Assembly: GCA_038087875.1 (NCBI GenBank)
Contig: CM075993.1
Span: 5,644,001 to 5,708,000 of the forward strand
Reading direction: 5' to 3'
DNA: 64,000 nt
DNA from: Malacoraja senta
Taxonomy: Eukaryota
A program made the translations under genes and the position numbers. Below are positions 319 to 63,261 of the stretch, one piece after another. The first letter of the stretch is position 1. Every line of letters starts with the position of its first letter. Under the pieces are notes generated by a model. The model was not told the DNA's origin. It saw only the letters and a program-made list of their open reading frames with translations, and ran no database searches.

Positions 319-556
319 TATAAGGTGCCCTCAATATTCTGGTCCACAGTGGAAGAGTTATGCTTGTGACGTCTGAGGAGTGGCCTCAGCCCAACTCTGG
401 CATCAGCCGTCATGGTTCCATGTGTGCTCACGAGTTTGCACGTTCCCCTTGCGACGTGGGTTTCCTTCGGATGCTCTGGATTCCTTCCATTTCTCAAGGA
501 CGTGTGGGTTTGTGTGTTAATTGGCTTCTGCAAATTGCAGGGTGTGGATGAGACCA

Positions 557-752
557 CCCAAACCACCCCCTCCCCAGGTACTTTCCCCTGCAACCGCAGG
601 AGATGCAACACCTGTCCCTTTACCTCTCCCCTCGACTCCGTCCAAGGACCCCGACGGTCTTTTCAGGTGAGGCAGAGGTTCACTTGCACCTCCTCCAACC
701 TCATCTACTCTATCCGCTGTTCCAGGTGTCAACTTCTATACATCGACGAGAC
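557..752 (+). mobile_element. Penelope-like element fragment: Cys-rich linker and start of the GIY-YIG endonuclease
   Basis: Translates as PGTFPCNRRRCNTCP...FTCTSSNLIYSIRCSRCQLLYIDET, matching the (L/V)IY...YIGET motif. Confidence 0.9.
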
Positions 753-1012
753 ATAGCTGGAGTTACAGAACTCCTCCACTCCACCACTGTCGGAGTGAGG
801 CCCAGTGCAAATTGGAGGAACAATTTGAGGAAATGGTCAAACGTGGGCAAATAGTACCAGCTAAGATGAGGCATCTTGGTCAGCATGGACGAGTTGGGCC
901 GAAGGGCCTTTTCCATGCTGTATGGCTTTATGCATCACAGGACTTTAGGCAGGCAAGCACTTGACTGAATGTCTGACCTAAACTTAGCAGGGACAAACTC
1001 CCTGAGTGTTAT

Positions 1013-4686: not shown

Positions 4687-5536
4687 TGTAATTATTCCTT
4701 CAGAGATCTGGGCTACACCCTGTGGACCAAACACTAAAAGTGTTTCTTTAATCCTACGCTAACTTAAGAGGAGAGTGTCCCTGACTTTGTTTTGAGTTCT
4801 TTTAAAACCTTTACCATTCATGGATGGTGGACTCTGATAATGGCAGCATTTATTTTCCCATCCCCATTTGCCCTGAGCTGTGGAGTCAATTGGGAGTCAA
4901 CTCCATTTTGTGGCCCTAGGGAGCAGGTATCCTCCCCTGAAAGTGCCTTCTCTCTGATCTCCTTTAAATCCACATACATCCATCTGGTAGTTTAGTTGTC
5001 ATAGAGTCTCAGACCTTCGCAGCAAGGAAAAAGGCCCTTCGGCCCAGCTTGTCCATGCCAACCTCTATGTTATTTCATGTTGTAGGAAGGAATGCTGGTT
5101 TAAACCGAAGATAGACACAAAGTGCTGGAGTAACTCAGCGGGGCAGGCGGCATCTGTGGAGAGAAGGAATGGGTGATGTTTCGGGTCGAGACCCTTCTTC
5201 AGACTGCAGACTTCTCTCCAGAGATGCTGCCTGTCCCGTTGGGTTACTCCAACATTTTGTGTCTATCTATTTAAGTTAATCCCTGTTTTTGGTCCATATT
5301 CCTCCATATCCCTGAACTTTTCCAATCCATGTACCTCTCCAAATGGCTTTTAAACATTGCGATTGTACCCGGCTTGCCCACCACCTCTGGCAGTCATTTA
5401 TTCACCACCTCCCGTGTGAAAAACATTCCCCTTCGACCGCTTTAAAACTTTCCCCTCTCACGTTAATTCTATGCCCGCTAGTTTTGAACTTCCCTACACC
5501 CTGGAGAAAAAAGTCCCCAACCATCCATCCTGTCTA

Positions 5537-5781
5537 AGGTAGACAAAAGTGCTGGAGAAACTCAGCGGGTGCAGCAGCATCTATGGAGCGAAGGAAATAG
5601 GCAACGTTTCGGGCCGAAACCCTTCCGGGTTTCGTCCCGAAACGCTGCCTATTTCTTTCAGGGTTTCGGCCCGAAACGTTGCCTATCTCCTTCGCTCCAT
5701 AGATGCTGCTGCACCCGCTGAGTTTCTCCAGCACTTTTGTCTACCTTCGATTTTCCAGCATCTGCAGTTCCTTCTTAAACA
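5537..5781. mobile_element. Penelope-derived fold-back (palindromic) insert
   Basis: Inverted arms flanked by the 15-bp direct repeat catccatcctgtcta (5522-5536 and 5782-5796). Confidence 0.85.
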
Positions 5782-6009
5782 CATCCATCCTGTCTATGCC
5801 CCTGCTGGACACAAAATGCAGGAGTAACTCAGCAGGTCGGGCAGCATCTCTGGAGAGAAAGGATGGGTGATGTTTTGGGTCGCCACACTGCTTGAGACTG
5901 AAAGTGGAGGGGATAGATTGTGTAAACCTCATACAAGGTCACCTCTCAGTCTTGTTTGCTTCAGGGAAAGCAGTCCCAGCCTAGACAGCCTCTCCTTATA
6001 ACTGGGGTG

Positions 6010-6416
6010 AAAACATAGAAAATAGGTGCAGGAGGAGGCCATTCGGCCCTTCGAGCCACCACCGCCATTCATTGCAATCATGGCTGATCGTCCCCAATCA
6101 ATAACCTGCCTTCTCCCCATATCCCTTGATTCCACTAGCCCCTAGAGCTCTATCTAACTCTCTCTTAAATCCATCCTGTGATTTGGCCTCCACTGCCCTC
6201 TGTGGCAGGGAATTCCACAAATTCACAACTCTCTGGGTGAAAACGTTTTTTTCTCACCTCCGTCTTAAATGGCCTCCCCTTTATTCTAAGACTGTGGCCC
6301 CTGGTTCTGGACACGCCCAACATTGGGAACATTTTTCCTGCATCTAGCTTGTCCAGTCCTTTTATAATTTTATATGTTTCTATAAGATCCCCCCTCATCC
6401 TTCTAAACTCCAGTGA
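6010..6416 (-). mobile_element. CR1/HER1-like LINE 3' fragment
   Basis: Translates as MRGDLIETYKIIKGLDKLDAGKMFPMLG..RTRGHSLRIKG. Confidence 0.9.
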
Positions 6417-7242
6417 AAGGGGGAAATGAGGCGGCGAAACAGGCTGATGGGAACACTCTGAGGGTCAGTCTTGAACAGAGGGGCTGAATGGCCCTTTACT
6501 GTTCCCTAAAGGGTGTGAAGGTAGCTGACGGCAGGAGTTGTGACTGTGAAATCACTGAGTTGTCAAACTAACCATGTGTTTCACTAAGTCTGAGTCTGAA
6601 GAAGGGTCTCGACCTGAAACGTCAATATTTCCTTCACTCCGTAGATGCTGCCTCACCCGCTGAGTTTCTCCAGCAATTTTATCTACCATGTGGTTCACCA
6701 ATGTCCTTCAACAGAGTCCGAGTGACTGAGCCTGGATCAGTTTAAAGGAGATGTAGGTGCCTGGAACGCAGGGGTAATGACAGAGGCAGATATGATAGGA
6801 GCGTTTTGGAGGCTTTAGGATAGGCACAGGGATATGCAGGGCATGAGGTACATGGATCATGTGCATGCTGAGGAGATAAGTTTAACTCGACATCATGCTC
6901 AGCACAGACATTGTGGGCTGAAGGGCCTGTTCATAAGTTGTAGAAGCAGAATTAGGCCATTCAGCCCATCAAGTCTACTCCGCCATTGGCTGATCTGTCT
7001 TTCCTTCTCAGCTCCGTTCTCCTGCCTTCTCCCCATAACCCTTGACACCCTAACTAATCAAGAACCCATCAGTCTCCACCTTAAAAATATCCATTGACTT
7101 CATCTCCACGGCCCTCTGTGCTGTTCTTTATTCCATGGCTGTCTGTTGTACAGTCACTCGTGAGTATCTATGAAGATGGGCGATGAGCAGAAAAGCCAAA
7201 TGTGGGTGGATTTACAGTGTAGTCAAGTTAGATTTACCCTGG

Positions 7243-7344
7243 GTAGACAAAAATGCTGGAGAAACTCAGCGGGTGAGGCAGCATCTATGGAGTGAAGGAA
7301 TAGGTGACATTTCGGGCCGAAACCCTTCTTCAGACTGACCCTTC
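7243..7344 (-). mobile_element. Penelope-derived short insert with hammerhead core
   Basis: Minus strand has CTGAAGAAGGGTTTCGGCCCGAAA. Flanked by the 12-bp direct repeat gatttaccctgg (7231-7242 and 7345-7356). Confidence 0.8.
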
Positions 7345-8050
7345 GATTTACCCTGGCGTTGTTTTGATAAAGATATATTTGCCTGCATATCTTTGGAAAA
7401 GTACTGCACAATACTTGGCGATCTCAGCTGAATGTCAAAGCGGGCAGTCGGTTTGGCCAGTGCCGTCCTTCCCAGTGGGTATGAGGAGGAAAAACAGCGC
7501 AAGATGTATCACATGGGAACATCTGTCCCTTTTATGGTGTGGCTGGAGGCTGTGGGTCCATTTGATGGGGATCAGATTACACTGCAATGCAGTCCAGGGA
7601 TTCAGGGAGGAAACTCGATCCGGACCGATAGATTCCCGGATATAATTAAGCACGGATCACGTCTCTCAGGTCACCACAGCCTGCAATAAGTGAGATCAAA
7701 CTAAAGCATATTGTGTTCTTATGTACATCTTGTGCATCTGCAATCTCATGAGAATAATTTTGGAAGTGGTGCGGGTGGAAGTATTTATAGATACTTAAAA
7801 AAATAACAAGCAAAGACTTTTGAACAACAAAATATAAAATGTATACGAGTAATTTTAATAGACCAGCAGTGAGGTGAATGGGAATTAACATGTAGAACCC
7901 CCTCCCCCCCACGACTTGCATGGTTAAAATACATACAGGGAACTCGGAGTGGCGTGGTGGCACAGTGGGTAGAGCCACTACATCACGATGCCAGAGACCT
8001 GGGTTCAATCCTGATCTTGGGTGCTGTCTGCGCGGGGTTTGCGTGTTCTC

Positions 8051-8464
8051 CTCTTTTAAGTCAAGACTAAAGACTTATCTATACCCCCAAGCCTTTCCTG
8101 GCGTCCTCTGAGTGAGAGCTGCATGTATATATGTATGTAGGTACACAAAAATGCTGGAGAAACTCAGCGGGTGCAGCAGCATCTATGGAGCGAAGGAAAT
8201 AGGCAACGTTTCGGGCCGAAACCCTTCTTCAGACTGATAGGCAATATATGTATGTAGTCTGAAGAAGGGTTTCGGCCCGAAACGTTACCTATTTCCTTCG
8301 CTCCATAGATGCTGCTGCACCCGCTGAGATTCTCCAGCATTTTTGTGTACCTATGTATGTAGTTTGTTTTGTTTGTGCTATTCTTATAACAAATGTAAAG
8401 CACTTTGGCCAACGAGAGTTGTTTTTTAAATGTGCTATATAAATAAATGTGACTTGACTTGACT
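8051..8464 (+). mobile_element. L2-like LINE 3' end nested in a SINE, itself containing a Penelope-derived palindrome
   Basis: FKSRLKTYLY peptide, then tgtaaagcactttg...tgctatataaataaa and a (GACTT)n tail. SINE head at 7948-8050 and SINE remainder at about 8478-8655. Confidence 0.7.
8259..8290 (+). ncRNA. Minimal hammerhead ribozyme motif (Penelope type); representative of dozens of copies
   Basis: CTGAAGA-A-GGGT(TTCG)GCCC-GAAA-C-GTT: conserved CUGANGA and GAAA boxes, stem II, a short palindromic stem III and an NUH triplet. Confidence 0.7.
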
Positions 8465-9009
8465 CCCTCTGGCTGCATGGGTGCTCCGGTTTCCTCCCGC
8501 ATCCCAAAGATGCACAGGCTTGCAGGCTGGTTGGCCCCTGGTGTGTAGGGAGTAGGGACGAGAGAGTGGGGTCAGGCAGAACTGGTGTGAGTCGCTGGTC
8601 AGCGCGGACTCGGTGGGCCGAGGGACCCGCTTCCATGCTGTGTCTCCAAACTGAACTCCTGGCCGTGTGTTTAAATCAAACTCCAGACTCTTCAACACAA
8701 AAGCCATGGCCGACACCCTTACTGCAGATAGATAAAAAGTTGCTGGAGTAACTCAGCAGGTCAGGCGGCATCTGTGGAGAAAATGGAGAGGTGATGTTCT
8801 GGGCTTGGACCCTTCTAGAGACTGATTGTAGCGTGCAGGGGAGTGGGAGGGGGGGAGGGACTGGAAGCAATAAACCAGCATCTGCAGTTCTTTTTTATTA
8901 CCCATCCTGCAGCATTATTGACCTGTCTGCGAGAATGAGACGTTAAACTGCGATCCCTTTGTCAGGCTGATGCAAGTAACTCGGCAGTCAGTAGACTGCA
9001 GGGAAGCTT

Positions 9010-9595
9010 TAGGCTTTAGGTACAGCCCGGAAACAGGCCATTTGGCCCCCCGAGTCTGTGCTGACCAGTAATCACCCCGTACACCAGCACTATCCCACAT
9101 ACTAGGGGCAATTAAATTTTATTTACCGAAGCCCATTAATCTACAAATGTGGACAAAAGCGCTGGAGAAACTCAGCGGGTGAGGCAGCATCTATGGAGCG
9201 AAGGAAATGGGCAACGTTTCGGGCCGAAACCCGGAAGGAAATAGGCAACGTTTCGGGCCGAAACCCGGAAGGAAATAGGCAACGTTTCTGGCCGAAACCC
9301 GGAAGGGTTTCGTCCCGAAACGTTGCCTATTTCCTTCGCTCCATAGATGCTGCCTCACCCAGTTTCACCAGCCCTTTTGTCTACCTTCGATTTTCCAGCA
9401 TCTGCAGTTCCTTCTTAAACCTACAAATGTGCACGTTTTTGGAGTGTGGGAGGAAAACCGGAGCACCTGGAGAAAACCCTCGTGGTCACAGAGGGAATGT
9501 ACAAACTCCGTACAGTCAACACCCGGAGGCAAGGTTGAACCCGGGACACTGGCGCTGTGAGGCAGCAACTCTACCGCTGCGCCACCGTGCCACTG
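9010..9595 (-). mobile_element. HE1-type SINE interrupted by a Penelope-derived palindrome (9152-9420)
   Basis: Direct repeat ctacaaatgtg at 9141-9151 and 9421-9431 flanks the palindrome. Confidence 0.8.
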
Positions 9596-10204
9596 TGTCC
9601 TTGCCATCATTTCTCCCTCAGCCAACATCATCAGAGATCAGCGCCCGGCTGTGTTGCTGTTGGACCATGGGCGACTGCTGTACACAAACAGACTGCTGCA
9701 TTGCCAATGCTTCTGCAGCAATGCGGAACTATTTTTTATCAGCAACACGGTATTTTTGGACATCCCATATGGGCCGTGAATTGTGCAATAGAACCACATG
9801 TTTGTTTTTAGTGAGGGTTTTGGGAAACAAAGACTCCCCCTCCCAATCCACAATCAGTCTGGTCCCGACCAGAAACGTTTAACGTCACCTATCCATGTCC
9901 TCCAGAGATGCTGCCTGACCCCTTGAGTCACATGTTTAAGCAGGAACTGCAGATGCTGGAAAAATCGAAGGTAGACAAAAATGCTGGAGAATCTCAGTGG
10001 GTGCGGCAGCATCTATGGAGCGAAGGAATTGGCGACGTCGCCTATTCCTCACCTCCATAGATGCTGCCTCACCTGCTGAGTTTCTCCAGCATTTTTGTCT
10101 ACCCTGAGTTACATACACCACTGCAAGTTTGAATTTCATTGTTCTATCTGGGATAACATGATGGCAAGACCATCTTTCATCTACCTGCACATAGCGTGCA
10201 TCAT

Positions 10205-10800
10205 AAAGTCATAAGGTCATTAGTGATTGGAGTAGAATTAGGCCATTCGGCCCATCACCTACTCTGCCATTCAACCCTGGCTGATCTATCTCTCCCTCCT
10301 AACCCCTTTCTCCTGCTTTCTCCCCATAACCTCTGACACCAGTACTAATCAAGAATATCTACAGTATCCCTGCCTTAAAAATATCCACTGACTTGGCCTC
10401 CACAACTTTCTGTGGCAAAGAATTCCACAGATTCACCACCCTCTGACTAAAGAAATTTCTCCTCATCACCTTCCTTAAAGAACGTCCTTTAATTCTCCAC
10501 ATCCACTCTATCCAAGCCCTTCAATATTCCGTATGTTTCAATGAGGTCCCGCCCCCCCCCACTCCCCCCCTCATTCTTCTAAACTCCACGAGTACAGGCC
10601 CAATGCCGACAAACGCTCATCATAGGTTAACCTACTCATTGCTGGGATCATTCTTGTAAACCTCCTCTGGACCCTCTCCAGAGCCAGCACATCCTTCCTC
10701 AGAGATGAGGCCCAAAATTGCTCACAATATTCCAAATACAGCAGCATCTCAGCATTACATCCCTGTTTTTATATACAAGCCCTCTTGAGATAAATGCTAG
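10205..10800 (-). mobile_element. CR1-like LINE 3' fragment
   Basis: Homologous to other CR1 copies in the window, including the RT C-terminal region. Confidence 0.8.
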
Positions 10801-10974
10801 TACTGAGTTTGCGTTTATCACTCCATTCCCTGCATATCCAGATGCCTGTCCAAAAGTCTGTTAAATGCCACTAACCTATCTGCTACAACTGCCACCTCTG
10901 GCAGCATATTCCAGGTGCTCACCCAACCTCTGTGCCCCACACATCTCCGTTAAACTTTGGCCCCTCTCTGCATG

Positions 10975-11715
10975 CAGTTCTGGCAAACACATTCCAGGAA
11001 AGATGTGCAGGTTTGGAGAGGTTGCAGATGAGGATTACCAGAATGCTGCCTGGATTAGAGGGTTTCAGCTTCGGGGAGAGGTTGGATAGACTTGGATTGG
11101 TGTCTCTGGAACGTTGAAGGTTGAGGGGTGACTTGACAGAAGTACATAAAATCAAGAGAGGCATTAGAAACATAGGTACAGGAGTAGGCCCTTCGAGCCA
11201 GCACCGCCATTCAATACGATCATGGCTGATCATCCAAAATCAGTACCCCGTTCCTGCTTTTTCCCCATATCCTGAAGAATATCCATTTCCCCTTAGACTG
11301 AAGAAGGGTTTCGGCCCGAAACGTTGCCTATTTCCTTCGCTCCATAGATGCTGCCGTACCCGCTGGGTTTCTCCAGCATTTTTGTCTACCTTTTCCCCAT
11401 GTCCCTTGATTTCATTAGCCCTAAGAGCTAAATCTAACTCTCTCTTGAAAACATCCAGCGAATTGGCCTCCACTGCCTTCTGTGGCAGAGAATTCCACAG
11501 ATTCACAACTCTCTGGGTGAAAGAGTTTTTCCTCATCTCAGTCCAAAATGGCCTACCCCTTATTCTTAAATTGCCACCCCTGGTTCTGGACTTCCCCCAA
11601 CATCGGGAATTTTTTTCCTGCATCTGGCCTGTCCAATCCTTTAAGAATTGTATATGTTTCTATAAGATCCCCTCTCATCCTCCTAAATTCCAGTGAATAC
11701 AAGCCCAGTCGACCC
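10975..11715. mobile_element. Two opposed CR1 fragments with a hammerhead-bearing insert (about 11272-11390)
   Basis: Plus strand LERLQMRITRMLPGL; minus strand RGRPFWTEMRKNSFTQRVVNLWNSLP. The repeat ttttccccat flanks the insert. Confidence 0.8.
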
Positions 11716-12189
11716 TTTTAGAACCTTTATCGCAGGTTGGAAATGCCCCGACATGAGAGCGTTTGCATTTAGCCAGTCTCTCTCTCAGCCAGTGTGGGGT
11801 CATTAGCAGGCAATGTGCCTCTCGGCTCCTACCACACGGACTCTGCCGAGAGACAGAATTCTGCGCAGAGTGAAACTAAAATTGCGCATCAACAACAAGT
11901 CTTCGAGCAGACTGGCAATAACATTGTTTTGTACCAGCATCCGTTCCAACCCATGTGGGACTGTGCTCAGTGCCGACTAACTGTTAGAGCCAGCCAGCTG
12001 TGTGTTCAGTGAAACTATCGATTACTGCTGCTCTTATTCTGTCTGAATGCTGCACCCGTCCAAACCACCGCTGATAAAAATTACCGCAATTAATGTGGGG
12101 CAGAGGCAGGAATATTCTCGCCCCATCCGGCAGTCGAGGCATTGTGTTAATCTGGAAGTTATCCGCTCAAACCAAACCTTGCCCGGATC

Positions 12190-13804: not shown

Positions 13805-13907
13805 GCGTTCGTTCCCTGGGATGTGGACCTGACCTCCTTTGACCTTGACCAGCAGCTGAGGCACTTTGTGACCAGGCATTCGGCTCAGTTCTCCAGCGAG
13901 GTTCGAG
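13805..13907 (+). CDS. MAP1A: MAP1A-like coding exon (equivalent to exon 2), with an apparent 1-bp insertion
   Basis: Acceptor ttttccccaaacgcag and donor GAG|gtaagt. Reads (G)VRS then, after a +1 shift, WDVDLTSFDLDQQLRHFVTRHSAQFSSEVR(G). This resembles the MAP1A/1B/1S N-terminus; DLTSFDL-QQLR and FSSEV are closest to MAP1A as recalled. Length is 103 bp versus 102 bp recalled for the MAP1B equivalent. Confidence 0.9.
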
Positions 13908-17191: not shown

Positions 17192-17215
17192 ACATGGTGG
17201 GAGTGTTGAGTCTTA

Positions 17216-17524
17216 AAGCCCTGTCCCACAGTACGAGTTCATTCCAAGAGCTCTCCCGAGTTTGCCCCGATTCGAACTCGGAGATTTACAGTAATGGCCA
17301 CTCGTCGGTACTCGGGGCTCTCGTGGACATTTTTCAACATGTTGAAAAATCTTCACGAGTCTTCCCGTGCTTACCTGCCATTAGCGAGTCTTCCCGAGTA
17401 CCTGCCATTAGCGTTACGAGCCGCTAAGAGACATCCTCGAGCTCCGACGTACCCGCTACGTTCATTCTCCGTGCTTACCACGAGTTTGATTTGTTTTAAA
17501 CTCGGGAGAGCTCTTGGAATGAAT
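17216..17524. mobile_element. Harbinger-like MITE (subfamily A), right TIR truncated
   Basis: Starts tta-aagccctgtcccac and is near-identical to 18528-18858. Confidence 0.75.
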
Positions 17525-17699
17525 GGCTATTACAAACAGTCCAGTAGGGTATTGCCAGATACATCCCCGATCAGAAATAGTTTACTGATCCCACGTGTCC
17601 AAAAGGCACCATTTTCAAAGTCCAGTCCATGCCCTCGGTGTTATGAGCGGTGCCCATTCCAGGGGACCCCCAGGTTGCTGCAGGGCCTCCAGCCATAAG

Positions 17700-18275: not shown

Positions 18276-18527
18276 AAGCCTCATCACTGCAGACAGAGAT
18301 CGCATGAGGGAGGGCTTATAAATCACTTTGAACAGAATAAGAAAAGTTGCCAGTTGCTTGACAGCAGAAATTCTTCAGACTAAACGATCTGAGGGAATTG
18401 TGTGGTATTGATCTGTGCCGTGGTAACTTTCTAAGGAGCTGATGGGAGATTGTGGGTGAACTGCAAGCCCGATGCTGTACTTTAACTAACAACGGCACGG
18501 TGGTGCAGCGGTCGAGTTGCTGCCTAA

Positions 18528-18858
18528 AAGCCCTGTCCCACGGTACGAGTTCATTCCAAGAGCTCTCCCGAGTTTGCCCTGATTCGATCTCGGAGATTTA
18601 CGGTAATGGCCGCTCGTCGGTACTCGGGGCTCTCGTGGACATTTTTCAACGTGTTGAAAAATCTTCACGAGTCTTCCCGTGCTTACCTGCCGTTAGCGAG
18701 TCTTCCCGAGTACCTGCCGTTAGCGTTACGAGCCGCTAAGAGACGTCCCCGAGCTCCGACGTACCCGCTACGTTCATTCTCCGTGCTTACCACCAGTTTG
18801 ATTTTTTTTTAAACTCGGGAGAGCTCTTGGAATGAACTCGTACAGTGGGACAGGGCCA
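18528..18858. mobile_element. Harbinger-like MITE (subfamily A) inside a SINE head (SINE at about 18493-19200)
   Basis: TIRs aagccctgtcccac / gtgggacagggcca with taa and tta flanks; the SINE continues as cagc.ccagagac. Confidence 0.8.
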
Positions 18859-19529
18859 TTACAGCTCCAGAGACGCGGGTTCGATCCTGACTACGGTTGC
18901 TGTCTGTACGGAGTTTGTACTGTATGTTCTCCCCATGACCCGCGTGGGTTTTCCCCGGGTGCTCCGGTTTCCTCCCACACTCCAAAAGACGTACAGCTTT
19001 GTACTGTAGGTTAATTGGCTTCTGTCACAAGAAGCGCAAGACGGACGCCATTGTACGCAGATGCGGAGAAGTGTGTTCAGCTCTGGCTGGACAACTTCTA
19101 ATCTTGTGTGTGGACTCGATAAGAAGATTGTCCCTAGTGTGAAGGATAGTGTTAGTTTACGGGTGATCGCTGGTCATCACAGGCCAACTAAACTAAACTA
19201 AATTATAACATTATAACGTTAAAGATATAACATTGAAACACAAAAGACTGGAGATGCAGGAATCTTGAGCAAACAAACAAAGTGTTGGAGGAACTCAGCA
19301 GGTCAGGCAGCATGTATGGAGGAAAATGGACAAAATGGACCTTTCAGATCAGGACCCTTTGCTAAATATGTCTTGGAAGGAACTACCCATGCTGGTTTGA
19401 ACAGAAGGCAGACACAAAATGTGGAGTAACTCAGCGGGACAGGCAGCAACTCTGGAGAGAAGGAATGGGAAGTCTGAAGAAACGTCACCCATACCTTCTG
19501 TCCAGAGATGCTGCCTGTCCGACGCGTTA

Positions 19530-25555: not shown

Positions 25556-27760
25556 ATGCTATGACCAACCCTGATCCAGCCACTTGACAGGTCGCAATGT
25601 AGGGTCATGACCCTGACCTAACTTCCTTGTCCCCGTCAGGACTCCTGACCGCCCAACACCTTGTCCTGATCTGAAGAAGGGTTTCGTCCCGAAACGTTGC
25701 CTATCTCCTTCGCTCCATAGATGCTGCTGCACCCGCCGAGTTTCTCCAGCACTGTTGTCTACCTTGTCCTGACCTACCAGGTTGAAGCAACCCTAACAGG
25801 AACCCCAAACCTCAGTGTGCCCCAAATGCAACCCCATCTCATAAGTTTGGGAATGGTCTCCCAGTCGACCTTCCATGGCTGAGACAATGGATGTAGCAGG
25901 GTATAGAAACAAGCGCACTAAAGGACACAAATTACTGGAGTAACTCAGCGGGTCAGGCAGCATCTCTGGAGAATATGGATAAGTGACGTTTTGGGTCGAG
26001 ACCCTTCTTCAGACCGGCAGGGTGGTTAGTATATGGAAGGGGATGCCAGAGGAAGAAGTTGAGGCAGGGTCCAATTCGCGATGGCTTCTGCATCCCAGGT
26101 CTTCTTCTTATCAAGTCCACACACAAGATTAGAAGTTGGTCAGCCAGAGCTGAACACACTTCTCGGCATCTGCATACAATGGTGTCTTTCTTGTCGCTTC
26201 TTGTGCGTGGTGGTGGAAAGATTGGTGGAAACAGGGGCCGCGACGTGAACGCACTTCCCTTGACCCCTGCTTCCGGGGTTGGAAATATCAAATATTCCCC
26301 AGAATGGACATATCCCAAAAATGTGGATGTAACGCTGAGGCTTTCTAAGGCACTGGTGAGACGGCATTTGGTGTAATGGTGTTTAAGAGGCTTTTAGATA
26401 GGCACAAAATGCTGGAGTAACTCAGCGGGTCAGGCAGTGTCTCTGGAGAGAAGGAATGGGTGATGTTTTGGGTCGAGATCCTTCTTCAGATAGACATGTG
26501 GATAAGCAGGGAATGGAGAGATATGGATTATGCACAGGCAGATATGTGATGGCATCATGTTCAGCCCGGACATTGTGAGCCGAAGGGTCTGATCCTGTGC
26601 TGTACCGTTCTGTACAGGGGCATTGTGGGGGTGGTCTACTGGCAGGAGGGAAAGCTCCAATTTAACATGGGTTTGGGCAAACTTTCATCAAAGGCATCCG
26701 AGCACGCAGACGCAAGTCCCTCCCTGGTGTTCCCCTGTGTGATCATTGACACAAAATGTCCAATTAAACCGTTTGCCAACAGAGTCGGTCCTAGCCAATC
26801 CTTCACCTTTCCCTCCCGTTAATTAGCCGAGTTAGTCAGGCGTGATGACCCAAGGCGACAATTAGAAGCTTCCGTTCACACGTCTAAGCAGTTGCCATTG
26901 ACAGAGGAAGCCAGTTTATTTCTAGCGGCGTTTCCACAGGTTAGGTGGGAATCAGAGCCCTTGGTAACCCTCACCCAGCACTTCGAGGACACCAGATCAG
27001 TTGTGAATGAAAACACAGTTCAAAAGAAATAAATTGGAAAGCAGCGAATTCCTATTAAACTTGCATCAACCCTTGAGCTGGAATCAAAGTGCTGGAGGAT
27101 AGACACAATGGGACAGGCAGCATCTCTGGAGAGAAGGAATGGGAACCGTCACCAAAAAAATGGGAATTCACTCCAGAGATGCTGCCTGTCACGTTGAGTT
27201 AAGCCAGCATTTTGTGTCCATCTTCGATGTAAACCAGCATCTGTAGTTCTTTCCTGCACAAAATGCTGGAGGAACTTAGTGTAGGCATTACCTGTGGAGA
27301 GAATAGATCGATGATGTTTCAGGTCAAAGGCATATGGATTATGAGTAGACAGATGAGAGTTGGTCTTGACATTATGTTCAGCACGGACATTGCAGGTCGA
27401 AGGGCCCAACTGAACCTTTCTCCAGTACACATGAAAGCAAAACGATGATGAAATCTGTCAGGTTTTGTCACTTTCCCCACCCATTCCGCCAATCACCCCC
27501 ACCCCTCTTGCCTGCATCCACCTATCACTCGCCAAGATAGTCACCAAATGCTGGAGTAACTCAGGCAGCATCTCTGGAGAGGAGGAATTGGTGACGGTTT
27601 TGGGTCAAGACCCTTCATCAGACTCGCGTCCAAAGCTTTCTCTCGTGTCAAGCTTAGTCCTAGCCCTACCCCTCTTTCCAGTTTTCTCCCCCTTTTTCCA
27701 ATCAGTCCGCAGGAGGGTCCCGGCCAAAAATGTTGTCTGTTGAACCTCACCACGGATGCT

Positions 27761-29105: not shown

Positions 29106-30899
29106 TGAACTTATGATGTAAGTAGCATATGTTTGTTACACTGTGCCTCGACTCGCTGGAGTTTAGGAGGATGAGAGGGCACCTCATTGAAACTTCCCGA
29201 ATAGTATTCTTCTTCTTGTGTATGGCATACACAGCCTAAAGTTGTAGGTCAACTTGTAGGGCGAAGGCAGGAGAATGGGGTTAGGAGGGAGAGATAGATC
29301 AGCCATGATTGAATAGCGGAGAGGACTTGATGGGCCGAATGGCCAAATTCTCTCCTATCACTTATGACCTTATGAACTTTGCGGAGAACTGGGACTGATA
29401 CTTTCACAACTGTGCACTATCCTTGAGGATATTTGTAGTTCTGAAGGAAGAAAAGCCATCTCATACCTGAATATTTTTACGTCTGGTTAGTTTGAATATT
29501 GACATTAATATTTCTAACGTACTGAGTTCTTGTGGACCGATTGGAAAACAAACATTAATTAACCATTGAAAAAAGAAAGCATTGAATAATGTGTAGATAC
29601 AGCCACCTCATTCACGTCGCTGGGCAGAGATGGGGATGAATGGAGATGAATGAGGAATGCGAGCACTTCAGTTTAATTCCCTGTGGGATTCTGCTTACAG
29701 AGTGGTGTTCAGGGGACTGGTCTTTAACTCCTCCAGGGTGGTCCCGGGGAATTAGCATCTCATCGGTGTGAGGGGGGGGATTATCGCCTCTATCACAGAC
29801 CCTGGTGGAGGAAGGGGGGGGGGTGGTTTGTTCAGTGTGCCGGCTCTTGAAGCCGCCTGCGGGCTCACGGTGTCTGGACCAGCTGCTTGTGTCTCTTGCC
29901 AGACGGCTGGCGAGTGAGATCATTCGTGTTGCCGTGCTACGGGGGCAGGAATGCCTCAGTGTCGCGGCGTGGGGTGGTCCACCCCCCCCCCCCCCTCGCC
30001 CTTCTGCACAGAGCTACCGCCGGTCTGGAGAAGCAGAGATGGGGGGGCGGGGAGGGTCGAGGAAGAGGGGGTCGGGGGGTGTGTGAGAGTTAGGGGGGGG
30101 GGGTTGATGTAGTGGTGGCAACGTTCACTGGAATTCAACCCCCACAGCAACAACTCTGGGCTTATCCAAGCATGGATTTTCGTAAAGAGAACTACAACTG
30201 ATGTCCAGTGGTCCAAGCCGGAACACTGACCTAAGCCAAGCCCAGGATAGCTAAGAGAGACACAAAATGCTGGAGTAACTCAGCGGGACAGGCAGCATCT
30301 CTGGAGAGAAGGGATAGCTCTGAAGAAGGGTCTCGACCGCAAACGTCACCCATTCCTTCTCCCCAGAGATGCTGCCTGTCCCGCTGAGTTACTCCAGCTT
30401 TCTGTGTCTATCTTCGGATTAAACCAGCACCTGCAGTTCCTTTCCGACACAGGAATGGGTAACGTTTCGGGTCGAGATCGTTCTTCAGGATAGCTGCTGG
30501 ATTACCTTCAGTTAGTGACTGAGACCGTTCAGCCCATCGAATCTGCTTCCTCGTCCAACCCCTAGCCCAGCTTCAACAATATCTCAATTTCTTTATTCCT
30601 TGGAGCGCAGGAGGATGAAGGGTGTTCTTATAGAGGTGTACAAAATCATGAGAGGAATAGTTCGGGTAGAGGCACAGAGTTTTTTGCCCAGAGTAGGCGG
30701 AATCGAGAACCAGTTTAAGGTGAGGGGGGAAAGATTTAATAGAACCCTAAGGGGTAGCGTTTTTACCTGAAGGGTGGTGAGTGTTACTTCAGCACTTTGT
30801 GTCTAGGCTCAGTAACTGTGATGGACCGGGCAATATCTATCAATGTCGCTAAGTGTGTGAGACTTGGGACTGGCCGCATCAGGTTGTCTGTGATTCTGT

Positions 30900-34794: not shown

Positions 34795-36230
34795 AATAGA
34801 CAATAGGTGCAGGAGTAGGCCATTTGGCCGTTCGAGCCAGCACCGCCATTCAATGTGATCATGGCTGATCATCCCCAATCAGTACCCCGTTCCTGCCTTC
34901 TCCCCATATCCCCTGATGCCGCTATTTTTAAGAGCCCTGTTGAAAGCATCCAGAGAACCTGCCTCCACCGCCCTCTGAGGCAGAGAATTCCAGAGACTCA
35001 CCACTCTCTGTGAGAAAAAGTGTTTCCTCGTCTCCGTTCTAAATGGCTTACTCCTTATTCTTAAACTGTGTGGCCCCTGGTTCTGGACTCCCCCAACACC
35101 GGGAACATGTTTCCTGCCTCTAGCATGTCCAAGCCCTTAACAATCTTATATGTTTCAATGAGATACCCTCTCATCCTTCTAAACTCCAGAGTGTACAAGC
35201 CCAGCTGCTCCATTCTCTCAGCATATGACAGTCCCGCCATCCCGGGAATTAACCTTGTAAACCTACGCTGCACTCACTCAATAGCAAGAATGTCCTTCCT
35301 CAAATTAGGGGACCAAAACTGTACACAATACTCCAGGTGTGGTCTCACTAGGGCTCTGTACAACTGCAGAAGGACCTCTTTGCTCCTATATTCGATTCCT
35401 CTTGTTATAAAAGCCAACATGCCATTCGCTTTCTTCACTGCCTGCTGTACCTGCATGCTTACTTTCATAGACTGATGTACAAGGACCCCCAGATCCCGTT
35501 GTACTTCCCCTTTTCCCAACCTGACGCCATTTAGATAGTAATCTGCCTTCCTGTTTTTGCTAGCAGAGTGGATAACCTCACATTTATCCGCATTAAACTT
35601 CATTTGCCATGCATCTGCCCACTCCCCCAACCTGTCCAAGTCACCCTGCATTCTCATAGCATCCTCCTCACAGTTCACACTGCCACCCAGCTTTGTGTCA
35701 TCTGCAAATTTGCTAATGTTACTTTGAATCCCTTCATCCAAATCATTGATGTATATTGTAAATAGCTGCGGTCCCAGCACTGAGCCTTGCCGTACCCCAC
35801 TAGTCACTGCCTGCCATTCTGAAAGGGACCCGTTAATCCCTACTCTTTGTTTCCTGTCTGCCAACCACTTCTCTATCCATGTCAACACTCTACCCCCAAT
35901 ACCATGTGCCCTAATTTTGCCCACTAATCTCCTATGTGGGACCTTATCAAATGCTTTCTGAAAGTCCAGGTACACTACATCCACTGGCTCTCCCTTGTCC
36001 ATTTTCCTAATTACATCTTCAAAAAATTCCAGAAGATTAGTCAAGCATAATTTCCCCTTCGTAAATCCATGCTGACTCGGACCGATCCTGTTACTGCTAC
36101 CCAAATGTTCGGCTATCTCAACTTTTATAATTGACTCCAGCATCTTTCCCACCACCGATGTCAGGCTAACTGGTCTATAGTTCCCTGTTTTCTCTCTCCC
36201 GCCTTTCTTAAAAAGTGGGATAACATTAGC
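34795..36230 (-). mobile_element. CR1/HER1-like LINE, 5'-truncated, with reverse transcriptase domain (inactivated)
   Basis: ORF 35274-36155 contains QHGF..CLTNLL, YLDFQKAFDKVPH, SGVRQGSVLGP and KFADDT. An in-frame TGA at 35274-35276 is followed by VQRRFTRLIPG. Confidence 0.95.
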
Positions 36231-37421
36231 ATCATGGCTGATCTATCTCTCCCTCCAAACCCCATTCTCCTGCCTTCTCCCCATAACCTCGGGATCAAGA
36301 ATCTATCTATCTCTGCCTTAAATATTAAACTATTAAAATATTCAATATTAAACTGAGATGTGATCTGTCTTCCTGGTTTAATCCCCAACCACAGACCCTA
36401 TTTGAAACCAGACGAGGGGATCTCTCTCCAGAGACCTGGACCCAATATTAAGCCAGTCTGAAGAAGGGTTTTGGCCCGAAACGTCGCCTATTTCCTTCGC
36501 TCCATAGATGCTGCCGCACCCGCTGAGTTTCTCCAGCACTTTTGTCTACCGCCAATATTAATCTGTGAGCCAACATCACCAAAGCATCTCATCTTGCCTC
36601 TCGCACTGCTCCTTATGGGAGAAATACTTCAGCTTGGTTGCTGTCTGGGACTGGAGTGCAGTCTAGTTATTAGAAGTGGGATATCGGGGCAGGAGGTAGT
36701 ACACACACACACACACACAATGCAAGGAATTTGGAATTGTTCTGCTAATGTTGGCTGTTAGATTCGCTGCTGTCGTTGTTAGAGATGTTAGAAGAACAGC
36801 TTCTTCCCAACAACCAAGAGAAGCAAAGGTACTGGAGTATCCCTGTGGGTCAGGCAGCATCTCTGGATAATATGGACAGGTGACATCTGGATATAAGGAG
36901 ATCTCTCCTCATCTCCTTACTTCACACTTTTTGTCTTTTCATCTCTGGACTTTGCCCACCCATCTGCCTCAGAGGGCGGTGGAGGCAGGTTCTCTATATG
37001 CTTTCAAGAGAGAGCTAGATAGGGCTCTTAAAAATTGCAGTCAGGGGATATGGGGAGAAGGCAGGAACGGGGTACTGATTGGGGATGATCAGCCATGATC
37101 ACATTGAATGGCGGTGCTGGCTCGAAGGGCCAAATGGCCTACTCCTGCACCTATTGTCTATTGTCTATTGTCTATTATCTGTGTAAATGGCCTTTTCCAT
37201 TCCTTCTCTCCAGAGATGCTGCCTGTCCCGCTGAGTCACTCCAGCATTTTGTGTCTATCTTCGATTTAAACCAGCATCTGCAGTTCCTTCCTACACATCT
37301 ACACATTCCCGTCCCCGCCACAGCTATTTCAGGGAATCATGCGGTGACTGTTCCTCCTCATGGGATCAACAAAATGATTAACTCACCACCGGCAAAACCA
37401 CACTGTGGTGAGAGAGCTTCA

Positions 37422-42947: not shown

Positions 42948-43321
42948 CCAATAACCAACCTGATCTCCCGGTGGCTCAGCACTTCAACTCCCCCTCCCAT
43001 TCCGTATCTGACCTCTCTGTCCTGGGCCTCCTCCATGGCCTGAGTGAGGACCACCGGAAATTGGAGGAGCAGCACCTCATATTTCACTTGGGCAGTTTAT
43101 ACCCCAGCGGTATGAACATTGACCTCCAATTCCAGGTACTCCTCACTGTCTCCTCCCCTTCTCAGCTCTCCCTCAGCCCTCTGGCTCCTCCTCTTCCTTT
43201 CTTCTTCCCGCCCCCACCCGACATCAGTCTATAGAAGGGTTTCGGCCCGAAACGTTGCCTATTTCCTTCGCTCCATAGATGCTGCCTCACCCGCTGAGTT
43301 TCTTCAGCACATTTGTCTACC
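42948..43321 (+). mobile_element. Penelope-like element 3' part inserted in a SINE
   Basis: PVAQHFNSPSHS..LEEQHLIFHLGSLYPSGMNID (GIY-YIG C-terminus), followed by a terminal repeat whose hammerhead core is mutated to ctataga. Confidence 0.88.
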
Positions 43322-43640: not shown

Positions 43641-44390
43641 CTGATGCGTGGGAGCTTGCCGTTTGCAACTTTGCAGCCACCTTCGCTGTTACTCCTCAGC
43701 GACTACACTGTATAATTAGCTCTTCCTCTGCAAAGGCTTGGCATGTTCAGAATCTGTGAAGAAAAACCTTAAAAATAACCGATTACCGTTGCCAAATCTC
43801 CAGGATTGTCCCCAGAATTAGAGCTCGATGCTCAGACCAATTCTGGAAGAAACATGGTGTCACCAACAAGTGTATTTAATAGGAAGGTGAAAATTTCATT
43901 TTTGAATTACTCAGGAAATTAGCATTAAAAATATTGCTTATGGAAAAAATGAATTAGATGCCAAGCATTGAGGAATTTAGTACCAGTGTCAGGGATTATG
44001 GGGAGAAGGCAGGAGAATGCGGATAGGAGGGAACGATAGGTCGGCCATGTTTGAATGGCGGAGTAGACTTAATGGGCCTCTAATGGCCTAATTCTGCTCC
44101 TATCATTTGTGACCTTATGATCTTATAGAAACATAGAAAATAGGTGCAGGAGTAGGCCATTCGGCCCTTCGAGCCTGCACCGCCAATTCAATATGATCAT
44201 GGCTGATCATCCAACTCAGTATCCTGTACCTGCCTTCTCTCCATACCCCCTGATCCCTTTAGCCACAAGGGCCACATCTAACTCCCTCTTAAATATAGCC
44301 CTCTTAAATTATGATCTTCAAAGTCCAAGCTACAGATTTCAGACATGAATTCACACCAGTACGAGATGTCAAATCAGTTAAAGGTAACAT

Positions 44391-44695
44391 GGTAGACAAA
44401 AATGCTGGAGAAACTCAGCGGGCGAGGCAGCATCTATAGGAAATAGGCAACGTTTTGGGCCGAAACCCCTGAAGGAAATAGGCAACGTTTCGGGCCGAAA
44501 CCCTGAAGGAAATAGGCAACGTTTCGGGCCGAAACCCGGAAGGAAATAGGCAACGTTTCGGGCCGAAACCCGGAAGGGTTTCGTCCCGAAACGTTGCCTA
44601 TTTCCTTCGCTCCATAGATGCTGCCTCACCCACTGAGTTTCTCCAGCATTTTTGTCTACCTTCGATTTTCCAGCATCTGCAGTTCCTTCTTAAAC
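44391..44695. mobile_element. Penelope-derived palindrome with an internal tandem unit of about 32 bp
   Basis: Direct repeat aaaggtaacatggt at 44380-44393 and 44696-44709. Confidence 0.85.
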
Positions 44696-45164
44696 AAAGG
44701 TAACATGGTGCCTGCCTTATGGGGACTGGTAGAACTGTACACTACGTAACAAGCACCTGGTACCCTTGCATTCTATCTTTACTGATCCACTCAGAACTCT
44801 TTACCTTTGGGACTTTATCACGAAGGCGAGGCACTCAAGCAGGGAAGACAATGTTCTGGCTGTCTGTATTAAATGAGAGCAAAATATCATCTAAGGGTGA
44901 TCTTCACCTCCCACGTACTTCATAGGGAGCGCCACTCTGCGAAAGATGCCACCTTTTTGGATGAGATGTTAAACTTAAGTTGTTACTTGTGGGCGGAGCA
45001 CCAAGGCGAATTCCTTGTATGTGAATACTTGGCCAATAAACTTACTTACTTACTTACTTAAGTGTTGTCACCCGTCCCCCACCCCCCCCTCCCCAATCCA
45101 CCCCATCTCAGGCCGTTGAATCACCTTCATGAAGAATAGGGTTGTTTCTCCCCATCAATGACTC

Positions 45165-49929: not shown

Positions 49930-50630
49930 TAGTTAGGGTGGGAAATGAGAAAATCGGTCTGAAGAAGGGTTTCGGCCCCGAAACGTTGCCTATTTCCTTC
50001 GCTCCATAGATGCTGCTGCACCCGCTGAGTTTCTCCAGCACTTTTGTCTACCTAGAAAATGAGAACCGTCTGAGATGGAGTCAATGGTGCCCTGGGAGAG
50101 ATTTCTTGATGGAAGAAATGATGTGGACAGAATCACTTGCTTCCACTAAACCTGCGAGCAGAAGTCGTAATCATTAGGAAAAATTGGGAGTTGAGCTAAA
50201 TCTGAAATGTTCTTGAAACTGGATCAATCCAAGAATTGCATCAGCCAGCCAGCTGAAAAACGGCAATGTTGTTCCAATTAAACACCAAGCCCAGAAACAT
50301 GATCCATCCAACTAAATCAACATCTGCAGCAGGGAGAACATCGTGCTGGGTTATAATGGAGGGGGTGGAGCGTCCATGCAGAACAGGGAGCTCTCTTGTG
50401 GGTGGTGGGGCCGGGATCTACATTGGGAGCTTGGACACTAGAAACTGGGATGATGGCCCACTGTCGGTATGAGGGATTGCCGTGCTGTCAGTGATGCCGT
50501 ACTGGTAGATGAGGCACCCAACCGTGAGCTCTTCTAGCCTCTTGTGGTCCAATGAGTCACAGAGTCATTCAGCACAGAAGCAGGCCCTTTGGCCCATCAT
50601 ATCAATGCCGCCCATCCAGTACCACTCTAT

Positions 50631-50861
50631 GTTTTTAAGAAGGAACTGCAGATGCTGGAAAATCGAAGGTAGACAAAAATGCTGGAGAAACTCAGCGGGT
50701 GCAGCAGCATCTATGGAGCGAAGGAAATAGGCAACGTTTCGGGCCGAAACCCTGAAGGAAATAGGCAACGTTTCGGGACGAAACCCGGAAGGGTTTCGGG
50801 CCGAAACGTTGCCTATTTCCTTCGCTCCATAGATGCTGCTGCACCCGCTGAGTTTCTCCAG
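50631..50861. mobile_element. Penelope-derived palindrome
   Basis: Direct repeat cagtaccactctat at 50617-50630 and 50862-50875. Confidence 0.85.
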
Positions 50862-51027
50862 CAGTACCACTCTATATTCATTTCATTTACCAACACTTGC
50901 CCCATAGCCTTCTCGGCCATGGTGATTCAAGTGCTCATCTAGATAGTTTAATTTTTGAGATGCCGCGCGTAAACTGGCCCTTCGGCCCATCGAGTCCGCA
51001 CCGACCAGCGATCCCCGCTAACACTGA

Positions 51028-57309: not shown

Positions 57310-57509
57310 NNNNNNNNNNNNNNNNNNNNNNNNNNNNNNNNNNNNNNNNNNNNNNNNNNNNNNNNNNNNNNNNNNNNNNNNNNNNNNNNNNNNNNNNNNN
57401 NNNNNNNNNNNNNNNNNNNNNNNNNNNNNNNNNNNNNNNNNNNNNNNNNNNNNNNNNNNNNNNNNNNNNNNNNNNNNNNNNNNNNNNNNNNNNNNNNNNN
57501 NNNNNNNNN
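57310..57509. other. Assembly gap (200 N)
   Basis: Run of N characters. Confidence 1.
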
Positions 57510-60741: not shown

Positions 60742-60824
60742 GCCAGAAGACACTCCACCACAGGAGTGATGAGCTGGAGTCCGTGGTCCTGGTAAACCCC
60801 ACAGAGCACACTGTCGCCTCAGAG
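60742..60824 (+). CDS. MAP1A: MAP1A-like coding exon (equivalent to exon 3), 83 bp
   Basis: Acceptor ccttgtctttccccag and donor GAG|gtaact. Phase 1 to 0, reading (G)QKTLHHRSDELESVVLVNPTEHTVASE, compared with MAP1B GQKILHHRSDVLETVVLINPS. Confidence 0.93.
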
Positions 60825-61936: not shown

Positions 61937-62077
61937 GTTCACGCTCTCGTGGCCGACCCGTCCCAGCATAAGCTCCTGATTCTGTGCGGGCAAACGACAG
62001 AACACGGAGGAGACCTGATACTACAGACTGGGACGTACACCTTTCAAAGATTCGTCGAGACCTTTGCAGACACTGAG
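61937..62077 (+). CDS. MAP1A: MAP1A-like coding exon (equivalent to exon 4), 141 bp
   Basis: Acceptor ttcccgtttcag and donor GAG|gtgagc. Phase 0 to 0, reading VHALVADPSQHKLLILCGQTTEHGGDLILQTGTYTFQRFVETFADTE, compared with MAP1A KLLILSGQ..GGDLILQSGTYS. Confidence 0.93.
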
Positions 62078-62549
62078 GTGAGCTTGTGGACTATTAAACA
62101 TTGCAATGGAGTCATACAGCACAGACATGGGCCCTTCAGCCAAAACATGTCCACATTGACCAAGATGCTCCATCTAAGATCCCTATCCCCATTTGCTCAC
62201 TCATGTCCCAAATCCTTCTAATCTAAATCATCTACGCCATCCTACAATCTACCTCATCGGGGACCCTAGGACAACCTTTGATCGGACTTAAGACACAAAA
62301 GCTGGAGTAACTCAGCGGGACACGCAGCATCTGCAGAGAGAAGGAATGGGTGACATTTCGGGTCTCTATTCTTCAATTGGACCCGAAACGTCACCATTCC
62401 TTCTCTCCGGAGACGCTGCCTGTCCCGCTGAGATACCCCATCATTTCTGTGTCTATCTTCGGTGTCAACCAGCATCTGCAGTTCCTTCCTACACATATGG
62501 TCGGACTTTACTGGCTTTACCTTGCACTAAACATTATTCCCATATCTCG

Positions 62550-62774
62550 GGTGGATAAAAATGCTGGAGAAACTCAGCGGGTGCGCCGGCATCTATGGAG
62601 CGAAGGAAATAGGCAACGTTTCGGGCTGAAACCCGGAAGGATAGGCAACGTTTCGGGGACGAAACCCGGAAGGGTTCGGCCCGAAACGTTGCCTATTTCC
62701 TTCGCTCCATAGATGAGTTTCTCCAGCATTTTTGTCTACCTTCGATTTTCAGCATCTGCAGTTCCTTCTTGAAC
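62550..62774. mobile_element. Penelope-derived palindrome
   Basis: Inverted arms with approximate flanking repeat attcc(c)atatc. Confidence 0.75.
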
Positions 62775-63261
62775 ATTCCATATCGTGTATCTGTACACTG
62801 TGAGTGGCTCGATTGTAACCATGTATTGTCTTTCCGCTGGCTGGTTAGCGCTGAACAAAAGCTTTACACGTGGGCAATAAACGAAACTGAAACTACAGCA
62901 CAGAAGCAGGCCCTTCCCGCCAAAACATCGACCAAGGTGTTCCATCTAAGCTACCTCGCGCATGTCCCAAATCCTTCTGAACCTATCTTTGCACGTGCAA
63001 TAATAGCGTGCAGGATAAAGGAGATGGTTTCAAAAATTAGTCACCAGCTTTAAGCATAGAACCAGGCACTCTGCCCCACTTCTGGGGCTTCTGCTGCACC
63101 CCTCCTCTGCTCCTCCATCACTAAGACCTCCTGCCCATTCTCCCTGTGTTTATCCAGCCTCCCCTCAAATGCCTTTGCCTGTCCACCACAACCACATGCA
63201 CTGGGAACAAGGTCCACACGCTGCCTTGTGTCGTCTGTTTCTTTTACCTCCCCAATTCATC

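What the first reader, a model, noticed from the sequence alone, without database searches (positions are those of the whole stretch)
5522..5796. Fold-back palindromic units with a shared junction, each flanked by its own target duplication
Seen: at least five inserts (5537-5781, 9152-9420, 44391-44695, 50631-50861, 62550-62774) consist of two inverted terminal-repeat arms. They join at nearly the same point, within the hammerhead stem II (gaaacccggaagggtttcg or its complement), and have lost the CTGAAGA box. They hold variable numbers of a unit of about 32 bp (ggaaggaaataggcaacgtttcgggccgaaacc). A single 11-15 bp direct repeat brackets each whole palindrome. Inference: either the palindrome moves as one ribozyme-dead unit, or the Penelope RT repeatedly snaps back or switches template at stem II. 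Each copy would form a dsRNA hairpin of roughly 80-100 bp in the intron.
Basis: partly seen in the sequence, partly recalled or inferred. Interest (0 to 1): 0.7.

Follow-up and report, generated by a model that had tools for sequence, protein, structure and literature searches.

The report
Skate Penelope palindromes sharing one fold
Five short hairpin-shaped insertions of a Penelope-like jumping gene in a skate-like genome all turn back on themselves at the same ribozyme-destroying joint, which looks inherited while the outer arms look re-copied at each jump, a variant of a known layout that gives a natural marker for how these elements build inverted repeats.

Summary
The five inserts are real. 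Each is an inverted, tail-less terminal-repeat (pLTR) arm, a central fold, 1-3 units of 34 bp (not 32), a long arm and a 35-37 bp tail. Four have an exact 11-15 bp target duplication; the fifth's is imperfect. The arms belong to a Neptune-like Penelope-like element (PLE); all five lack the hammerhead CUGA box. Inverted pLTR + tail + duplication is the described PLE layout. What is unusual is the shared centre: the same 20-nt fold occurs 5 times (0 in shuffles), always with one T allele beside it (1 of 20 other copies). Yet the two arms of each copy match each other better than other copies' arms (1 of 120 permutations) and come from different subfamilies. The fold also stands in contigs of independent runs from other organisms, so an artefact is unlikely. 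Ribozyme loss is unsurprising: PLE insertion in vitro needs no hammerhead cleavage. Hairpins lie in a MAP1-family gene; no function shown. New variant of a known kind.

The parts
5522..5536 (.). E1 left target duplication, 15 bp (right copy 5782-5796)
5538..5622 (-). E1 short arm: inverted pLTR without tail, outer end at the point where tail-less single copies end
5623..5626 (+). E1 fold loop (TTCC on +) closing the 8-bp perfect stem; replaces the CUGA box of both arms
5627..5660 (+). E1 34-bp unit; T allele of stem II at 5635
5661..5781 (+). E1 long arm (5661-5745) and 36-bp tail (5746-5781)
5782..5796 (.). E1 right target duplication
9141..9431 (+). E2: duplication 9141-9151/9421-9431 inside a SINE; short arm 9152-9232; two units 9233-9300; loop GGAA 9301-9304; long arm 9305-9385 with T allele 9313; tail 9386-9420
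44380..44709 (+). E3: duplication from 44380 and 44696; short arm 44391-44469 (13-bp deletion); three units to 44571; loop GGAA 44572-44575; long arm 44576-44660 with T allele 44584; tail 44661-44695
50617..50875 (-). E4 (reverse): duplication 50617-50630/50862-50875; tail 50631-50667; long arm 50668-50752; unit 50753-50786 with T allele (A on + at 50778); loop 50787-50790; short arm 50791-50863, ending about 12 nt early and with the 3-nt inner loop of stem II inverted
62536..62784 (+). E5: imperfect duplication; short arm 62550-62634; one 33-bp unit 62635-62667 with T allele (A on + at 62659); loop GGAA 62668-62671; long arm 62672-62740 (15-bp deletion); tail 62741-62775. Centre is flipped relative to E1/E4
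42950..43321 (+). Parent-type copy: C-terminal end of a PLE GIY-YIG endonuclease frame running into the same pLTR family (43233-43321); links the arms to a PLE
25671..25763 (+). Ordinary single-arm copy with intact CUGA box and the T allele: shows that T is a real but rare family allele
8127..8362 (.). Comparison copy: two full ribozyme-intact arms head to head with the target sequence at left, middle and right; looks like two cDNAs primed at one site

Best explanation
These are non-autonomous insertions of a Neptune-like PLE terminal repeat, moved in trans by the element's RT/GIY-YIG protein. The fold arose once (or a few times) as a head-to-head junction that removed the CUGA box, and is since carried in the RNA template with a partial inverted arm. 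At each insertion RT starts at the tail end, copies the long arm and the fold; the outer short arm is then re-made from the same long-arm sequence, either because the cDNA snaps back on itself once past the fold, or because a second cDNA primed at the other target nick at the second RT start site anneals to the first through the palindromic centre. The 34-bp units come from re-alignment between the CCTTC at the fold and the CCTTC 34 nt further on. SHOWN: anatomy, PLE link, shared fold, T allele, arm concordance, presence in other organisms' runs. INFERRED: RNA-borne centre, re-made arm, slippage origin of units, which of snap-back or twin priming.
For: Fold identical in 5 of 5, 0 in shuffles; none of 16 further inverted-arm loci that I picked by eye has it, and the 13 clean head-to-head pairs among them all differ at the junction. 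Exactly one T allele per element, always next to the fold: 5 of 10 fold-adjacent stem II copies versus 1 of 20 others, Fisher p=0.009; independent assembly from random templates has probability 8e-5 at the observed frequency 1/12 and at most 0.03 at any frequency. Outer arms differ by 3.1% within a copy versus 6.2% averaged over all pairings; 1 of 120 permutations is as low, and copies carry different subfamily alleles that are common in relatives too (places 5572, 5573, 5734). Short arms end at or within about 4 nt of the point where all 8 single-arm copies end in 4 of 5 elements; tails occur on 7 of 8 palindromes of this family and on 0 of 8 single-arm copies, matching two RT start sites that bound the tail and extension on both target strands in vitro (PMC11167929, parts 1-2 read). 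The copy at 8138 has the target sequence three times. Hammerhead mutants still insert in vitro. Self-priming was proposed for PLE palindromes (PMC3846280, passages).
Against: Only five copies; no genome was held. No strictly private variant is shared by both arms; the shared alleles are family-wide and one site is a CpG that can mutate repeatedly, so several homogeneous masters explain the concordance as well. The centre is not uniform: T lies 3' of TTCC in three copies and 5' of it in two; loop orientation relative to the tail is TTCC in two, GGAA in three, which needs extra inversions. In two relatives only about 15% of contig depth at the T position reads T (X1: 160,889 of 189,769 is G; X7: 375,254 of 457,868 is G), so the T marker is not universal and G/G folds could be a repeated hot-spot product. 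E4's short arm ends about 12 nt early.
Confidence: 0.5

Rival explanations
1. The whole palindrome is transcribed and copied end to end from several master copies; arms agree within a copy because each master was already homogeneous, and centre flips come from recombination between the inverted arms in genomic DNA.
For: One duplication brackets each whole insert. Centre type tracks an arm allele: E1 and E4 share both, E2 and E3 share both. Shared alleles are not private. Fold-spanning depth relative to arm depth differs about 30-fold among three runs (0.3%, 4%, 10%), a weak hint of lineage-specific amplification that the tool warns is no copy number.
Against: Four well-preserved copies show four arm haplotypes at two sites, each concordant in both arms where readable, so many masters are needed. 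A run-off 5' end would not be expected to fall on the RT start site shared with single-arm copies. RT must read through an 85-bp RNA duplex (-186 kcal/mol).
Confidence: 0.25
2. The junction is a hot spot re-formed de novo at each insertion: RT stalls at hammerhead stem II and switches template, helped by the quasi-palindromes there and the GAAGG/CCTTC hairpin of the pLTR.
For: De novo head-to-head inserts are common here. The pLTR folds a GAAGG/CCTTC hairpin whose span equals the unit. Arms agree within a copy. G dominates beside the fold in two relatives. An earlier AI note (e1-7858806, unchecked) read shark palindromes this way.
Against: The fold needs the same untemplated base each time and shows no microhomology (sequence). 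The snap-back junction predicted from the GAAGG/CCTTC hairpin is absent from this family in the window (0 matches). One T and one G beside the fold in 5 of 5 cannot come from a single ordinary template. The sister family shows no recurring junction in 10 pairs.
Confidence: 0.2
3. The fold and the units are hairpin-induced sequencing or consensus artefacts.
For: Perfect hairpins can make fold-back chimeras (general knowledge). Raw reads of this assembly were not available.
Against: Contigs of independent public runs from other organisms cross the fold: variant-bearing contigs reach 27-41 letters beyond positions 5625-5645 in X2 and X7, one 85-nt contig lies whole on 5595-5679, and joints show folds without a unit and head-to-tail units. 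Arms and units carry their own point changes and indels; four copies have exact duplications.
Confidence: 0.03

Closest known systems
Endonuclease-bearing PLE insertions with inverted pLTR, optional 30-40 bp tail and target duplication (Arkhipova et al. 2013, PMC3846280; Craig et al. 2021, PMC8557442; passages read)
   Same: Head-to-head inverted pLTR shorter by the tail, tail on one end only, one duplication around the whole insert, palindrome at the inverted junction, self-priming proposed.
   Different: There the junction is a per-copy or per-family feature of ORF-bearing copies; here ORF-less 230-305 bp copies share one fold that removes the ribozyme box, with a marker allele and a 34-bp unit array. 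The passages read do not describe that.
[quoted passage not shown]
   Same: Ordinary arms carry CUGANGA, an unpaired base before helix II, a G-C closing pair and a palindromic helix III; the paper notes dual motifs 100-700 bp apart on opposite strands.
   Different: The five copies have lost the CUGA box on both arms.
Poseidon of Anolis carolinensis in vitro (Frangieh et al. 2024, PMC11167929; parts 1-2 of 4 read)
   Same: Two RT start sites bounding the tail; both target strands extended; hammerhead cleavage not needed for insertion.
   Different: Different clade (the element here has the Neptune/Nematis-type zinc finger in its homologs); inverted-arm formation was not reconstituted.
Non-LTR retrozymes, non-autonomous PLE derivatives (bioRxiv 10.64898/2026.07.22.740005; part 1 and passages read)
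   Same: Short, non-coding, pLTR-derived, mobilised in trans; tandem units.
   Different: Retrozymes are head-to-tail repeats with an intact hammerhead in each unit; these are head-to-head, ribozyme-dead, and the 34-bp unit lacks the core.

Membership tests
EN+ Penelope-like element insertion | pLTR lies directly 3' of an RT/GIY-YIG frame | tested here: met
   Frame end at 42950-43138 runs into the same pLTR; 16 homologs, 3 of 8 scanned show GIY-YIG at E 0.001-0.008, below Pfam's cut-off
EN+ Penelope-like element insertion | Inverted, shorter pLTR adjoining a direct pLTR, tail of 30-40 bp on one end | tested here: met
   5 of 5 copies
EN+ Penelope-like element insertion | Variable-length target duplication | tested here: met
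   Exact 11-15 bp in 4 of 5, imperfect in 1
EN+ Penelope-like element insertion | Hammerhead motif in the family's pLTR | tested here: met
   12 descriptor hits in the window versus at most 1 in 100 shuffles; Rfam has no hit; cleavage untested
Neptune clade | CX2-5CxxC zinc finger before the GIY-YIG motif | tested here: inconclusive
   Present in homologs P0003, P0012, P0015 and in a separate fragment at 553-753, not in the truncated copy linked to this pLTR; shared with Nematis
Neptune clade | RT phylogeny | not testable with these tools
   No PLE RT found in the window; no genome held
Non-LTR retrozyme | Intact type I hammerhead in each tandem unit | tested here: not met
   0 cores in the five copies
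Non-LTR retrozyme | Head-to-tail array of full monomers | tested here: not met
   Arms are head to head; the tandem unit is a 34-bp fragment
MITE (non-autonomous DNA transposon) | Inverted repeats at both termini with a fixed-length duplication | tested here: not met
   One end is an unpaired tail; duplications vary 11-15 bp

The most novel reading that the evidence does not exclude
The fold is a heritable, ribozyme-dead 'joint' module that parasitises the Neptune cycle: it lets two target-primed cDNAs (or one cDNA) anneal through the palindrome, so it completes insertion more often than ordinary copies, recruits arms from different pLTR subfamilies, flips orientation through a heteroduplex centre, and has spread to very high copy number in several skates. 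Its T allele, loop orientation and unit number would then record, copy by copy, how PLE inverted repeats are made.
Probability: 0.25. Interest if true: 0.65.

Novelty: new variant of a known kind. Interest (0 to 1): 0.4.

Why it matters
How PLEs make their tandem and inverted structures is called undefined in Craig et al. 2021 (passages), and the in vitro system stops before that step. A family with a fixed fold, an asymmetric marker base, a flippable loop and countable units is a natural tracer: a genome-wide tally separates whole-unit copying, snap-back and twin priming without any bench work. It would also show in vivo that ribozyme-dead PLE templates propagate. As a source of intronic dsRNA it is one of many hairpins in this genome and not special.

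Tried and rejected
No whole genome is held, so no genome-wide count. Exact pattern scans found nothing in metagenome, viral or prokaryote collections, as expected for a vertebrate repeat. Rfam gave 0 hits at gathering score over the window and, over 5000-12000, 22 weak matches, mostly generic miRNA hairpin models, no hammerhead family; rejected as hairpin look-alikes. No RNA holder was listed on record; run X15 is RNA only by guess, and its low fold depth (35.5) is no evidence on expression. No empty site was seen in relatives' contigs (929 joints not shown). My first hammerhead descriptor was too greedy and found 5 hits; corrected. A CTGAAGG look-alike at unit junctions in E3/E4 was considered as a rebuilt ribozyme and rejected: A9 is changed and no cleavage triplet follows. 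Homolog search to name the MAP1 paralog found none. Exon search covered 150 of 333 candidate frames, plus 6. Paper searches; none listed a paper on a shared-junction PLE palindrome family in skates or sharks (listings only, except the five papers cited); Repbase/Dfam entries and subscription papers were not searchable, and supplements were not read, so a consensus of this family may already be deposited. Earlier-findings look-ups by sequence, place and long word list gave nothing relevant.

Full report
OBSERVATION. The five inserts (E1 5538-5781, E2 9152-9420, E3 44391-44695, E4 50631-50863 reversed, E5 62550-62775) are present as described. The 20-nt fold matches exactly these five places in the window at up to 2 mismatches, and never in 100 shuffles. 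The unit is 34 bp (33 in E5), with 1, 2, 3, 1 and 1 extra units. Target duplications are exact at 15, 11, 11-14 and 14 bp and imperfect in E5; removing the insert and one duplication restores the host repeat for E2 (21 paralogs) and E5 (4 paralogs), while no paralog spanned the site for E1, E3, E4. Each insert is asymmetric: one arm carries a 35-37 bp tail. E1 folds as RNA at -186 kcal/mol, z = -25.

WHAT THE ARMS ARE. The same repeat at 43233-43321 follows the end of a reading frame whose best homologs are skate proteins (Leucoraja, Rhinoraja; 16 hits). Three of eight scanned homologs match GIY-YIG weakly and three of six printed carry a CX4CxxC finger before the motif, the mark of Neptune/Nematis PLEs (PMC8557442). 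The host is therefore most likely a skate (inference). A minimal-hammerhead descriptor finds 12 cores in the window against at most 1 in 100 shuffles, and none in E1-E5; the layout fits the PLE minimal hammerheads of PMC4209133. Rfam has no matching family.

WHAT IS ORDINARY. An inverted pLTR shorter by the tail, a tail on one side and one duplication around the whole is the described PLE layout (PMC3846280; PMC8557442). The window has many such inserts of two pLTR families. Loss of the ribozyme is no obstacle: hammerhead mutants still insert in vitro (PMC11167929).

WHAT IS NOT ORDINARY. Of 16 further inverted-arm loci that I picked by eye, none has this fold, and the 13 clean pairs all differ at the junction. 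Five of the eight palindromes of this family share it. Each of the five has exactly one stem II copy with a T allele, always beside the fold: 5 of 10 fold-adjacent copies against 1 of 20 others (p = 0.009, copies not independent). T is a real family allele, seen in one ribozyme-intact copy at 25671. This points to inheritance of the centre. The outer arms point the other way: they differ by 3.1% within a copy against 6.2% over all pairings (1 of 120 permutations), and different copies carry different subfamily alleles in both arms. None of the shared alleles is strictly private, which weakens this test. The centre also varies: loop TTCC (E1, E4) or GGAA (E2, E3, E5) relative to the tail, T 3' of TTCC (E1, E4, E5) or 5' of it (E2, E3), and an inverted 3-nt inner loop in E4.

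ENDS. All 8 single-arm copies of this family end at one point and lack the tail; 7 of 8 palindromes have a tail on one arm, and the other arm ends at or near that same point (E4 about 12 nt early). In the anole element the tail is bounded by two RT start sites and both target strands are extended. The copy at 8138 has its target sequence at left, middle and right, as two cDNAs primed at one site would leave.

INDEPENDENT DATA. Contigs of four public runs from three other organisms were laid on 5380-5960 (platform not on record). Contigs cross the fold in X1, X2 and X7: variant-bearing contigs extend 27-41 letters beyond it in X2 and X7, one 85-nt contig covers 5595-5679 whole, and joints show a fold without unit (X7) and head-to-tail units (X1). 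Ordinary arms continue into the intact CUGA box. An assembly artefact is thus unlikely. Against my reading, T makes up only about 15% of depth at 5635 in X1 and X7 (about 54% in X2), and some of that may be ordinary T-allele arms; G/G folds probably exist. Summed depths are no copy numbers.

MECHANISM. Most likely (0.5): the fold is carried in the RNA with a partial inverted arm, and the outer short arm is re-made from the long arm at insertion, by snap-back of the cDNA or by annealing of two cDNAs through the centre. The second variant would also explain flipped centres. Units would arise by re-alignment between two CCTTC words 34 nt apart; the pLTR folds a hairpin of that span. Rivals: whole palindromes copied from several masters (0.25), a de novo hot spot (0.2), artefact (0.03). 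All steps beyond anatomy, allele counts and cross-organism presence are inferred from five copies.

CONTEXT. Three + strand exons of a MAP1-family gene (Pfam PF23415) lie at 13805-13907, 60742-60824 and 61937-62077. E3 and E4 lie between the first two and E5 just after the third; E1 and E2 lie upstream, probably in an earlier intron (inference). Hairpins would form in the pre-mRNA, but 167 inverted pairs lie within 600 nt of each other in this window, and no expression or editing data were obtained.

VERDICT. Real; a new variant of a known kind of PLE insertion. Ten paper searches listed no description of a shared-fold family, but repeat databases could not be searched. Interest 0.4: its worth is as a tracer for an open step of the PLE cycle.

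Noticed in passing
window 13805-13907, 60742-60824, 61937-62077 (+): Three exons of a MAP1-family microtubule-associated protein gene (Pfam MAPB1_N), with AG/GT ends; about 47 kb between the first two found. Paralog not determined.
   Followed up: partly
window 8127-8362 and 30245-30495: Head-to-head PLE arms with the target sequence repeated in the middle as well as at both ends, in two different pLTR families; looks like twin insertion at one target site.
   Followed up: partly
window, family of 11298-11390: Tail present only on palindromic or composite copies (7 of 8 palindromes plus 58927), never on 8 single-arm copies; single-arm copies mostly start within a few bases of the CUGA box.
   Followed up: partly
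window 553-753 (+): Separate PLE endonuclease fragment with CX4CxxC finger and GIY-YIG-type motif, no pLTR next to it.
   Followed up: partly
window 58927-59070: Composite copy: tail-bearing arm of this family joined head to head with a short piece of the sister pLTR family, suggesting a switch between templates of two families.
   Followed up: no
window 35274-36242 (-): 322-aa LINE reverse transcriptase fragment (Pfam RVT_1), with many related 3' fragments across the window.
   Followed up: no
window 17210-17698 and 18525-18861: Another repeat with about 51-bp inverted ends and an internal 27-bp tandem, present at least twice; not PLE-like; possibly a MITE.
   Followed up: no
window 57310-57509: Assembly gap of 200 N.
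   Followed up: no
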